A stretch of 64,000 nt of DNA, from NCBI RefSeq assembly GCF_044647545.1, contig NZ_CP172818.1; one strand, 5' to 3'. Made by a program: the position numbers. Shown piece by piece: positions 6,001 to 9,000 of the stretch. This DNA comes from Escherichia coli. Its GTDB lineage: Bacteria; Pseudomonadota; Gammaproteobacteria; Enterobacterales; Enterobacteriaceae. How positions within the stretch are numbered: position 1 is the first letter of the stretch; each line of letters begins with the position of its first letter.

Positions 6001-9000
6001 CTCTTCCATGGACGCAGGATCGTTAAAGGATTGAGTTGTTTTACTTGAATTAATACACCAGCGAGCTCTGATAGCTGCCAGAGTGGGTTCTATGGATACA
6101 GTTGCTGGGGTTGCCATTGGCTTATCTCCTGTGTAGTTGCTGTATCATTGACTAAACTGTGTATTACGATACATGAAAATCTATCTTGATCAATAGTTGA
6201 TGATATTTTGTAATATGTTGATTTTTAATGGAATCAACGCATATCAACGTTGTTTTTTATGGTAATACCTGCTTCATTTAAGATCCATGTCTCAATTTTC
6301 TCGTGCCATTTTCGTAACAGATCTAACGGACGACGGCGATAGTGTTTTTCGGCAAGAGCGCTGGGTTTGTGTCCCATAATTTGAGCAACAATACCAGTGG
6401 GAACTTCAACCCACTCGGCCAAAGTACCAAAACTACGACGTAAACCGTGAAGGCTGATATGTGGTAACTCAGCCAGCACTAATGCTCTGTTGTGCGCTGA
6501 ACGCGGCTCAATAATTTTGCCACTTTTACTGTTACTTCTGAAAACCCAACCCTCCTTATTTACGTCAGAATTTGGGGATTGCGCTAGTACATTTAACAAT
6601 TCAGAAACATAAGGAGTGAGAGGGATGATACGTTCACCTTCGATCTTGTCTTTAATTCGCATGCTTGACCATTTGAAATCTACGTCTGACCAGCGAAGCG
6701 ACGCAATTTCTTCACGCCGAGCACCAGTGAGCAAAAGTACTTGGAGATAGGCCGATGCAATAGGATTATTGAGGCTACGCACGGCACTAAACCAGCTTTT
6801 TAGTTGTTCCTTTTGCAGGCAATCATCAGCTTTACTCGCTGACACGGGAACCATTTTTCTTACGTTGTAATCTTGTGCCAGATCGCCAGGAATGATCCCT
6901 TGATATTTTTTCTGATAATTACTCCATTTGATGAAAGCACGTAGTAGGCGATAAGCGTGAGCAGTGACGGTAGGTCTATTTTGCCTTTCTGTACTCAGCC
7001 ACGCTGCTATGTAATCTGGGGTTAGCTCCGATAACGGCAGGTTGAGCAAACTAGCCAATGGTCCAGCCGAAGTCGGGCCTTGGCCTCTTTTTTTACTTTC
7101 GCCTCCACGACTGGACAAGTTAATGTGATCGGCAATGTATCGAGTAGAATATGGGCGTTTAGTTTTTGCACTGATACCGGTTCTCAATTCTTGAAGATAG
7201 TCTTCCCAGGCGACGGAGAAAGTCACTTTTGTTTTACGTGATTCTGCCTGCAGGGATTCTGCTTCTGCGATTTTTACAGCCTTAGCAATTCGTGGATCTA
7301 TCCCTGTATCGATCAATGTTTGTAACCGTCTTGCCTCGGCTCTCGCATCATCAATCTTCCAGTCGTTAATGTTGCCAATAGTCATGCGAAGGGTTTTCCC
7401 CGCATATACGCTTTGGAATACAAAGGCTTTTGCTCCGCTAGTTGCTCGGCATGCCAGGGTTGTTACATCTGCATCCCAAAGAAAAGTTTGTTTTTTCCCT
7501 TCCGGTAAGGTGAATCTGCGAAGTCTTTCGAAGGTAAATTTTTGTCTTGAAAGCGCCATTTTTCGGCTCCAGTTGAGAATTGCTGTCTTACAATAATGTA
7601 ACTGCTGGTGTAAGTAAATGGAGGGAATAAACATCAACTTTTGTTAATTTCAATCAACGGGTTTATTGCTATAACTTGGTGTTTTATAATATAAAGTATG
7701 TTGTTTTGATTGATTGCTCAAGTAGTTAAAAATGCATTAACATCGCATTCGTAATGCGAAGGTCGTAGGTTCGACTCCTATTATCGGCACCATTAAAATC
7801 AAAGAGTTACCCCATATTTAAATACACCACGTTTCCTCCTGTGCCGTATTTGTGCCATTGTAACCTTGGCAATTCATCAAAATACTGTTCTGACATCAGG
7901 CAGTGCAGGTGCAGACATTTAAGCCAATTGCTGCCGCCATTCTTTGACGTAGTCAATCAGGGCGCGGAGCTTTGGTGCAATATTGCGACGCTGTGGGAAA
8001 TACAGATAGAAGCCCGGAAATTGTGGAAGAAAGTCATCAAGCAGCGATACAAGCTTACCGCTTTCAATATATGGCCTGAAAGTTTCCTGAGTGGCAATTG
8101 TTATTCCTCCGCCGGCAAGAGCCAGCCTCAACATCAGACGCAGATCATTAGTCGTAATCTGCGGTTCAATCGCAAGGTCGAAAGTTCTCCCGTTTTCTTC
8201 AAATGGCCAGCGATAAGGCGCAACCTCCGGGGACTGACGCCAGCCGATACACTTATGGGTATTTCCCCCGGAGGCGAGAAAGCACTCTCCACGCCCGGCC
8301 GCAAGGATCAGGACGACGGGGGCAGGCATGAATCCTCCTCCTGATGGAGACGTACAGAGGCGACTTCTGCCAGCACGGAGAGTGCCAGAGTATGCGCATC
8401 CCGGGCTTTGGGGAATATCCCGACGGGTGCCCGGATTTGCGTTGTTTCCTCCCTGGACCATCCCAGCTCGTGGAGCTTTTGCAGACGTAACGTGTGGGTT
8501 CGATAGCTGCCCAATGCGCCGAGATAAAAGGGTTTTGCTTCTCGCGCGGCCTGCAACACTGGCAGCTCCCGGTTGAGATCATGGCACAGCAAAATGACCG
8601 CCGTATCGGTATCGATCTGAGCGCTGGCTGAGGCCGGAAAAAGATCGAAGATATGGCTGTCATAGCCTGTGGCTGCTGCAAGACTCGCGGTTGCCTGCGC
8701 CTCAAGAGAACGTCCGTAAATCATCAGCCTGACGCATGGCCTGAACCCCACCTCAAAGCCATTGAGATTCCAGCCCGTCCGGGTTTGCGTGGGCAGGCAC
8801 ACCAGCGATTGTGCTTGCGGATCGTAGCGCAGCCCCACCGGTTTTCTCTGTTCCAGGCGGTTCAGCACGGCGAGCAGAGGCTGTGCCGAGCGTAGTTTAT
8901 GGAGCGTCAGCGTGATCCCACCGCCGCAGGGCAGAACGATGTCAAACCACGGCGAACCTTCGCCATAGCGAATTTCGCGATCGCGGCCTGAGCCCATCAT

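What the first reader, a model, noticed from the sequence alone, without database searches (positions are those of the whole stretch)
7919..8461. LysR-family C-terminal fragment wedged between the prophage att remnant and paoD
Only the effector-binding C-terminal part of a LysR regulator is present; its longest ORF overlaps the 3' end of paoD in another frame. It may be the relic of an ancestral regulator truncated when the prophage and pao regions were juxtaposed.
Basis: partly seen in the sequence, partly recalled or inferred. Interest (0 to 1): 0.25.

Follow-up and report, generated by a model that had tools for sequence, protein, structure and literature searches.

The report
yagP: leftover half of a regulator gene
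This is the already-annotated E. coli K-12 gene remnant yagP, the tail end of a LysR-type regulator left behind by an old 6.1-kb deletion unrelated to the neighbouring prophage, so it is an ordinary decaying gene fragment.

Summary
Window 7919-8257 (minus strand) encodes only the last 111 codons of a LysR-type regulator. It lies between the thrW/CP4-6 att remnant (7741-7792) and paoD (8308-9264). This is yagP (b0282) of E. coli K-12.

Other E. coli (O157-type strains, PapM-32-1) carry the intact 299-aa gene, followed by SDR, a hypothetical gene, a ykgR fragment, a second LysR, a hydrolase and an MFS gene before paoD. The K-12 allele is that arrangement minus 6,133 bp, joined at a 5-bp microhomology (TTATG, window 8253-8257). 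The same junction occurs in 2,684 of 5,426 complete E. coli genomes. These include strains with an intact tRNA-Thr and no prophage.

One further detail emerged. The ribosome-binding site, ATG (8329) and first 26 codons of yagP come from a decayed MocA-like cytidylyltransferase gene. That gene follows paoD intact in 26 other enterobacterial loci. yagP is therefore an in-frame chimera.

The helix-turn-helix domain, half of the effector domain and the regulator's divergent SDR partner are all gone. pN/pS is 0.76, a frameshifted allele exists, and other lineages carry independent truncations. I read it as a non-functional relic, possibly co-expressed with paoABCD. Interest is low.

The parts
6234..7634 (-). 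intF, integrase at the right end of cryptic prophage CP4-6 (context, not part of the relic)
   Evidence: Pfam Phage_integrase + Arm-DNA-bind_3. MG1655 annotation places intF at 295696..297096 and ends CP4-6 at 297205, which is window 7743.
7741..7792 (+). 3' 52 nt of tRNA-Thr (thrW), the attR remnant of CP4-6
   Evidence: Aligns with L003 5998-6049, inside the annotated tRNA-Thr at 5974-6049. ARAGORN finds no complete tRNA here.
7793..7918 (.). Native 126-bp spacer between thrW and the 3' end of the LysR gene
   Evidence: The spacer has the same length in prophage-free strains (L003: tRNA ends at 6049, LysR stop at 6176).
7919..8257 (-). Codons 189-299 plus stop of the LysR-type regulator 'LysR1'. 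This is the distal half of the effector-binding domain only.
   Evidence: Pfam PF03466 positions 104-207/209. 97.9% nt identity to the 3' 339 nt of the intact 299-aa gene in L001/L094.
8253..8257 (.). Deletion junction: the 5-bp microhomology TTATG shared by both parental sequences
   Evidence: Parental sequences in L001 are ...ACACTTATGATTCAC... (LysR side, 8477-8481) and ...TTAATTTATGGTATTT... (paoD side, 14610-14614). K-12 reads ...ACACTTATGGGTATTT.... Codon view.
8253..8329 (-). Start codon and first 26 codons of a decayed MocA-like (MobA-like NTP transferase) gene, now the 5' end of yagP
   Evidence: tblastn matches at 65-92% identity to the N-termini of the genes immediately downstream of paoD in 26 enterobacterial loci. 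Those genes are PF12804 NTP_transf_3, 183-184 aa. A profile built from the 26 aligns to K-12 residues 1-26 with E=6e-10.
8334..8342 (-). Shine-Dalgarno AGGAGGAGG, 4 nt upstream of ATG 8329, inherited from the MocA-like gene
   Evidence: Sequence read directly. The SD and ATG are identical in the Pluralibacter MAG L005, where the MocA-like gene is intact.
8308..9264 (-). paoD (XdhC-family Moco insertion chaperone). Its last 22 nt overlap the yagP start.
   Evidence: Pfam XdhC_CoxI + XdhC_C. Annotation.
8330..8461 (-). Upstream extension of the mechanical 180-aa ORF: an open alternative frame inside paoD, not LysR-derived
   Evidence: No Pfam match before ORF residue 69. The same open frame is present in L002 and L005.

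Best explanation
Window 7919-8329 (minus strand) is yagP (b0282) of E. coli K-12. It is a chimeric gene remnant created by one ancient deletion of about 6.1 kb.

The ancestral E. coli arrangement was: thrW, LysR1 (299 aa), a divergent SDR oxidoreductase, a hypothetical gene, a ykgR fragment, LysR2, an alpha/beta hydrolase, an MFS transporter, a short relic of a MocA-like gene, then paoDCBA. Illegitimate recombination between two TTATG pentamers removed everything from LysR1 codon 188 to codon 27 of the MocA-like relic. The two genes happened to be joined in frame.

The product is a 136-codon ORF. Its ribosome-binding site, ATG and first 26 codons come from the MocA-like gene (start overlapping the paoD stop region). 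Its remaining 110 codons are the C-terminal half of the LysR effector domain. It lacks the DNA-binding domain and half of the ligand-binding domain. Its presumed target, the divergent SDR gene, was deleted too. It therefore cannot act as a LysR regulator.

Shown: the anatomy, the junction, the intact alleles, and independence from the prophage. Inferred: that it is transcribed as the tail of the paoABCD mRNA, may be translated from the inherited SD, and has no function.
For: - **Intact allele and gene order:** L001 and L094.
- **Junction:** breakpoints and the TTATG microhomology.
- **Frequency:** the junction is present in 2,684 of 5,426 complete E. coli genomes. Intact mid-LysR1 is in 414, and the undeleted paoD-distal side is in 913.
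- **Single origin:** the same junction and a shared A49T change occur in all 8 sampled deletion alleles.
- **Independence from the prophage:** the fragment is present next to an intact tRNA-Thr without any island.
- **The intact gene is real and conserved:** LysR1 orthologues are uniformly 299 aa and 85-91% identical in Enterobacter, Pantoea and Klebsiella. In Enterobacter cloacae the gene lies 98 bp from a divergent 240-aa SDR, as in E. coli.
- **Origin of the 5' end from a MocA-like gene:**
- **Relaxed constraint:** pN/pS is 0.76 for the ORF among 7 deletion alleles, 0.25 for paoD in the same strains, and 0.13 for intact LysR1 between E. coli and Enterobacter. Changes include non-conservative ones such as G74E and R68Q.
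- **A disrupted allele:** a 1-bp deletion frameshifts the ORF in strain 51008369SK1.
- **Repeated loss:** independent truncations of the same gene (1,041-bp and about 2,047-bp deletions) and complete loss occur in other lineages.
- **Annotation:** PGAP marks it as a pseudogene missing its N-terminus.
- **Transcription context:** no terminator-like site was found between paoD and yagP.
Against: - The 136-codon ORF is intact in 8 of 8 alleles read here, and in nearly all of about 48 deletion alleles in a spread sample judged by alignment length. By my own rough estimate this is slightly more than neutral decay would predict.
- It has a strong SD.
- MG1655 RefSeq now lists it as a CDS with a protein id.
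- One 2-D gel peptide-mass-fingerprint study lists a weak YagP match: 3 peptides, score 43 (PMC3342100).
- A transcriptome study lists yagP as up-regulated under carbon limitation (PMC6390033).
- A Keio ΔyagP strain appears among modest hits of a drug screen (PMC12457515).
- The pN/pS estimate rests on about 17 variable codons.
Confidence: 0.85

Rival explanations
1. One reading: the regulator was truncated by integration or excision of the CP4-6 prophage at thrW, which brought the prophage and pao regions together.
For: The fragment lies 126 bp from the att remnant. thrW is a busy integration site that carries different islands in different strains.
Against: The att-proximal end of the gene is its complete 3' end, with the native spacer. 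The break is 460 bp away, on the paoD side. The identical junction occurs with an intact thrW and no island (L003, L088, L089, L093) and with unrelated islands (L090-L092). Full-length LysR1 coexists with islands at thrW (L001, L094).
Confidence: 0.03
2. YagP is a translated, functional small protein. The chimera is expressed as a fifth cistron of the pao operon through the inherited MocA-like start. It is retained because the half effector domain does something, for example binding a ligand or interfering with another LysR-type regulator.
For: Strong SD and a start overlapping the end of paoD. The ORF is intact in almost all sampled alleles and the allele is in 49% of genomes. A weak proteomic hit and incidental transcript and screen mentions exist. 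MG1655 annotates it as a CDS.
Against: pN/pS is 0.76, with non-conservative replacements in both parts. This includes K-12's own R16C in the GxGxR motif of the relic. A frameshifted allele exists. Other lineages keep fragments of different lengths (139 or 76 codons) or none. This fits the thrW-proximal end simply being what deletions leave behind. Only Pfam positions 104-207 of 209 remain. No match in the defence-system library.
Confidence: 0.08
3. The K-12 arrangement is ancestral, and the long O157-type arrangement arose by insertion of a 6.1-kb cassette.
For: The K-12 type is the commonest allele. The paoD-side end of the 6.1-kb segment is AT-rich and abuts the point where DNA similarity to the intact MocA-like gene drops.
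Against: An insertion cannot recreate a contiguous 299-aa LysR1 that is collinear with, and 91% identical to, Enterobacter orthologues across the junction. The divergent LysR1-SDR pair is conserved as a unit elsewhere. The MocA-like profile still aligns weakly to about codon 41 in the undeleted allele, so that end is not a clean cassette boundary.
Confidence: 0.02

Closest known systems
yagP (b0282) of E. coli K-12 MG1655
   Same: Identical sequence and position. MG1655 297381..297791 (complement) corresponds to window 7919..8329. It is annotated 'putative LysR family substrate binding domain-containing protein YagP' and lies between intF/CP4-6 and paoD.
   Different: Nothing differs. I found no statement of the deletion origin or of the MocA-like 5' end in the papers I could search. 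I could not consult EcoCyc or EcoGene.
Full-length LysR-type regulator WP_000687183.1 (E. coli O157-type strains, PapM-32-1) and its 299-aa orthologues in Enterobacter, Pantoea and Klebsiella
   Same: The fragment is the 3' 339 nt of this gene, with 97.9% nt identity and the same position next to thrW. The nearest NCBIfam model is YafC, well below its cut-off. The nearest solved structure is 3hhg, a LysR-family regulator, at E=5e-31.
   Different: The fragment lacks residues 1-188: the HTH_1 domain, the linker and the first half of the effector domain. It also lacks the divergent SDR partner gene.
MocA/PucB-type MobA-like NTP transferases encoded next to XdhC-family chaperones (e.g. B. subtilis pucA-pucB; E. 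coli MocA encoded elsewhere)
   Same: In 26 enterobacterial loci, paoD is followed by a 183-aa PF12804 gene whose start overlaps the paoD stop region. Its first 26-27 residues match the first 26 of YagP. XdhC-MocA gene pairs are described in the literature (PMC2997495).
   Different: In E. coli only about 26-40 codons survive. Published descriptions call paoD the last gene of paoABCD, with MocA supplied from another locus (PMC3909100). The intact relatives score below the NCBIfam MocA equivalog cut-off (84 against 186 bits), so their exact activity is not established.

Membership tests
LysR-type transcriptional regulator (functional member) | N-terminal winged helix-turn-helix DNA-binding domain (Pfam HTH_1, PF00126) | tested here: not met
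   No HTH_1 hit in either the 180-aa or the 136-aa ORF at E<=10. The intact allele has HTH_1 at residues 5-64, E=8.5e-22.
LysR-type transcriptional regulator (functional member) | Complete C-terminal effector-binding domain (Pfam LysR_substrate, PF03466, about 209 positions) | tested here: not met
   Only model positions 104-207 are present. The intact allele covers positions 4-207.
LysR-type transcriptional regulator (descent from a member) | Collinear, near-identical sequence to part of an intact family member at the orthologous locus | tested here: met
   97.9% nt identity over 339 nt to L001/L094 LysR1, with the same thrW-proximal position and spacer.
Pseudogene / gene remnant | Truncated relative to intact orthologues by an identifiable lesion | tested here: met
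   6,133-bp deletion with TTATG microhomology. PGAP note 'missing N-terminus'.
Pseudogene / gene remnant | Relaxed selective constraint and disrupted alleles in the population | tested here: inconclusive
   pN/pS is 0.76 against 0.25 (paoD) and 0.13 (intact LysR1). This rests on 7 alleles and about 17 variable codons. There is one frameshifted allele, which could be a homopolymer sequencing error. The ORF is otherwise intact.
MobA-like NTP transferase (PF12804; MocA-like) | Recognisable NTP_transf_3 domain | tested here: not met
   No Pfam hit in the K-12 ORF or in the 109-aa relic ORF of the undeleted allele. Only residues 1-26 align to a profile of the 26 intact neighbours, E=6e-10 in a tiny search space.
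Cryptic prophage CP4-6 (as cargo gene) | Located inside the prophage boundaries and absent when the prophage is absent | tested here: not met
   CP4-6 is annotated to end at window 7743. The fragment is present in prophage-free strains.
paoABCD operon (as a fifth cistron) | Co-transcription and translational coupling with paoD | not testable with these tools
   Only circumstantial: a 22-nt overlap with paoD, a strong SD, and no terminator-like site between the two. This needs RT-PCR, RNA-seq or ribosome profiling.

The most novel reading that the evidence does not exclude
A single microhomology deletion created an in-frame chimeric ORF, with the MocA-like start and 26 codons fused to half a LysR effector domain. 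It is translated as a fifth cistron of the pao operon and has been kept in about half of all E. coli because it has acquired some activity. On this reading it would be a dated example of a new protein-coding gene made from two pseudogene pieces.
Probability: 0.06. Interest if true: 0.4.

Novelty: already known. Interest (0 to 1): 0.12.

Why it matters
It matters little for biology at large. It is a tidy, fully reconstructable example of gene decay in the best-studied bacterium.

There are three modest points of value:
- It corrects the natural assumption that a fragment beside a prophage end was broken by the prophage.
- It explains why yagP has a good ribosome-binding site and overlaps paoD: these are inherited from a lost MocA-like gene. 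This is relevant to annotators who have switched yagP between 'pseudogene' and 'CDS'.
- It shows that the pao cluster once carried its own cytidylyltransferase-like gene, still present in related genera. This is of some interest for work on PaoABC maturation, where MocA is supplied from another locus.

Tried and rejected
- **Pfam on the 109-aa relic ORF of the undeleted allele:** no hit. The MocA-like origin had to be shown through neighbours of paoD in other genera.
- **AlphaFold2 of full-length LysR1 with a 12-sequence alignment:** mean pLDDT 36.7, unusable. I therefore make no structural statement beyond Pfam coordinates and the alignment to 3hhg.
- **Literature searches for yagP and b0282:** only incidental mentions.
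- **Search for a LysR1 orthologue near paoD in 80 loci from other species:** none found. The LysR1-pao neighbourhood is specific to E. coli.
- **Possible shared breakpoint:** the K-12 junction (codon 26 of the relic) lies only about 4 bp from where DNA similarity between the undeleted E. coli relic and the intact Pluralibacter gene stops. I considered whether this reflects a shared or hot-spot breakpoint. The profile alignment continues weakly to about codon 41, and a shared 9-mer GTTTTAGAA follows. I therefore treat it as decay plus coincidence, but this is not fully resolved.
- **PADLOC scan of YagP:** nothing.
- **Promoter/terminator scan of 7600-8600:** nothing above shuffles.

Full report
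**What is there**

The window is E. coli K-12 DNA. Positions 7600-8700 are 100% identical to K-12 derivatives. The MG1655 record aligns with an offset of 289,462. On the minus strand the order is:
- intF (6234-7634), the last gene of cryptic prophage CP4-6
- the 3' 52 nt of tRNA-Thr thrW (7741-7792, plus strand), which is the att remnant
- a 126-bp spacer
- the ORF in question
- paoD (8308-9264) and paoC

The mechanical ORF 7919-8461 (180 aa) matches only the LysR substrate-binding domain, at Pfam model positions 104-207 of 209 (E=3.6e-14). It has no helix-turn-helix. MG1655 annotates the shorter CDS yagP/b0282, which is window 7919-8329 and 136 aa. NCBI's PGAP pipeline marks the LysR part as a pseudogene 'missing N-terminus' in every other strain examined.

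**Where the rest of the gene went**

Across 5,426 complete E. coli genomes the region splits into alleles. O157-type strains and strain PapM-32-1 carry an intact 299-aa LysR gene (HTH_1 + LysR_substrate) at the same distance from thrW. After it come a divergently transcribed 240-aa SDR oxidoreductase (98-bp intergenic region), a hypothetical gene, a ykgR fragment, a second LysR gene, an alpha/beta hydrolase, an MFS transporter and then paoD.

Aligning K-12 to this arrangement gives two collinear blocks. They meet at window 8253-8257. Both parental sequences read TTATG at the break. K-12 is therefore the long arrangement minus 6,133 bp, joined by 5 bp of microhomology.

Allele counts among the 5,426 genomes:

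| Allele | Genomes |
|---|---|
| K-12 deletion junction | 2,684 (49%) |
| Intact middle of the LysR gene | 414 |
| Undeleted paoD-distal side | 913 |

All eight deletion alleles I read share the same junction and a derived A49T change. This points to a single origin.

**The prophage is not responsible**

The end of the fragment that faces the att remnant is the gene's natural 3' end, with its stop codon and native spacer. The same fragment and junction sit next to an intact tRNA-Thr, with proA upstream and no island, in strains NT1F34, ecoli019, DETEC-P169 and 1585m1. They also sit next to unrelated islands in other strains. Conversely, full-length alleles coexist with islands at thrW.

**Where the 5' end of yagP comes from**

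The ATG at 8329 is preceded by AGGAGGAGG (8334-8342) and lies 22 nt inside paoD. The first 26 residues, MPAPVVLILAAGRGE(R/C)FLASGGNTHK, are not LysR sequence.

A scan of one genome per species for paoD relatives returned 80 loci. In 26 enterobacterial ones (Leclercia, Enterobacter, Silvania, Franconibacter, Siccibacter, Citrobacter, Atlantibacter, Kosakonia and others), the gene immediately after paoD begins with this same peptide at 65-92% identity. It is a 183-184-aa MobA-like NTP transferase (PF12804, E about 1e-26). Its closest NCBIfam model is the molybdenum cofactor cytidylyltransferase MocA/YgfJ, but below the family cut-off.

A profile built from the 26 proteins aligns to K-12 residues 1-26 (E=6e-10). 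It aligns to residues 1 to about 41 of the undeleted E. coli allele. The SD and ATG are base-for-base identical to those of a Pluralibacter MAG in which the gene is intact.

E. coli therefore already carried only a stub of this gene before the 6.1-kb deletion. The deletion joined stub codon 26 to LysR codon 189. Both parents read CAT AA at the join (His-Lys), so the fusion is in frame. Published accounts describe paoD as the last gene of paoABCD, with MocA encoded elsewhere (PMC3909100; PMC2997495). I found no mention of the stub.

**Is the fragment doing anything?**

Evidence that it is not functional:
- It has no DNA-binding domain and only half an effector domain.
- The gene it most plausibly regulated, the divergent SDR, was lost in the same deletion. 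The SDR is conserved in the same head-to-head arrangement in Enterobacter cloacae.
- Among seven deletion alleles, 12 variable codons change the amino acid and 5 do not. pN/pS is 0.76. For comparison, paoD in the same strains gives 0.25, and intact LysR1 between E. coli and Enterobacter gives 0.13.
- One strain has a 1-bp deletion in a G5 run that frameshifts the ORF. This may be a sequencing error.
- Other lineages have truncated the same gene independently. One has a 1,041-bp deletion that leaves about 139 codons and a headless SDR. Another has a deletion of about 2,047 bp that leaves 76 codons. Others have lost the gene entirely.

In every truncated lineage examined, the part that survives is the thrW-proximal end. 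This fits what deletions happen to spare rather than what selection keeps.

Evidence that keeps a functional reading alive:
- The ORF is intact in nearly all sampled alleles.
- It has a strong SD and no terminator-like site separates it from paoD.
- A 2-D gel study lists a weak YagP match.
- Two large-scale studies mention it incidentally.

I consider passive co-expression with paoABCD plausible, and function unlikely (about 6-8%).

**Comparison with what is known, and verdict**

This is yagP, a remnant of a LysR-type regulator. It fails the membership test for a functional LysR regulator: the HTH is absent and the effector domain is incomplete. It passes the test for descent from one.

The reconstruction of the deletion, the microhomology and the MocA-like origin of the start are small additions to the annotation, not a new kind of element. 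Novelty: already known. Interest: low.

The structure prediction I attempted was unusable, so no structural claim rests on it.

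Noticed in passing
window 8253-8329 (minus strand); L002 7950-8077; L005 10936-11487; L007 10909-11460: E. coli keeps a 26-40 codon stub of a MocA-like (PF12804) gene right after paoD. The gene is intact (183-184 aa, start overlapping the paoD stop region) in 26 enterobacterial loci. The pao cluster therefore once had its own cytidylyltransferase-like gene, although paoD is described as the last gene of the operon.
   Followed up: yes
L095 5001-5680 (strain TUM18780); L096 5001-5231 (strain elppa4); L002 (strain XJ6.1): The same LysR gene has been truncated independently in other E. coli lineages. One has a 1,041-bp deletion that also beheads the divergent SDR gene, one has a deletion of about 2,047 bp, and others have lost the gene completely. 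Each truncated allele keeps the thrW-proximal end.
   Followed up: partly
proteins P0140 (455 aa) and P0150 (448 aa), cluster of window 7922-8461: Database entries annotated as 'xanthine dehydrogenase accessory factor' have the length expected for PaoD read through into the YagP frame. That frame is open across the 3' end of paoD, so a frameshift near the paoD end would give a PaoD::YagP fusion. I did not inspect the sequences.
   Followed up: no
L097 (strain 51008369SK1), equivalent to window ~8263-8267: A 1-bp deletion in a run of five G in the MocA-like part frameshifts the 136-codon ORF. It may be a genuine allele or a homopolymer sequencing error.
   Followed up: partly
thrW flank in L001, L002, L091, L092, L095, L096; window 1-7743: The thrW site carries a different island in almost every strain looked at. 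These include CP4-6, P4-like satellites (psu, ogr/Delta, primase), a retron St85 pair, Avs2, AbiE plus a reverse transcriptase, and a CbtA/YeeU toxin-antitoxin pair. It looks like a defence-island hot spot.
   Followed up: no
window 8282-8284 (codon 16 of yagP): K-12 alone among the sampled alleles has TGC (Cys) instead of CGC (Arg) in the GRGER motif of the MocA-like stub.
   Followed up: partly
L001 14664-15621; L090 2062-3017: paoD itself is annotated as frameshifted in strain 2013C-4465 (which shares the O157-type gene order) and in strain GN4751. The pao cluster may be decaying in some lineages. About 2,190 of the 5,426 genomes show no match to the 3' end of paoD at all.
   Followed up: no
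L002 7997-8005 compared with window 8253-8257: The K-12 deletion endpoint lies about 4 bp from the point where DNA similarity between the undeleted E. coli stub and the intact Pluralibacter MocA-like gene drops abruptly, from 91.5% to none detectable. It is probably coincidence plus decay (weak profile similarity continues to about codon 41), but this is not fully explained.
   Followed up: partly
window 57003-57083: This tRNA-Ser (GGA) is the only complete tRNA gene in the window. It is unrelated to the finding.
   Followed up: no
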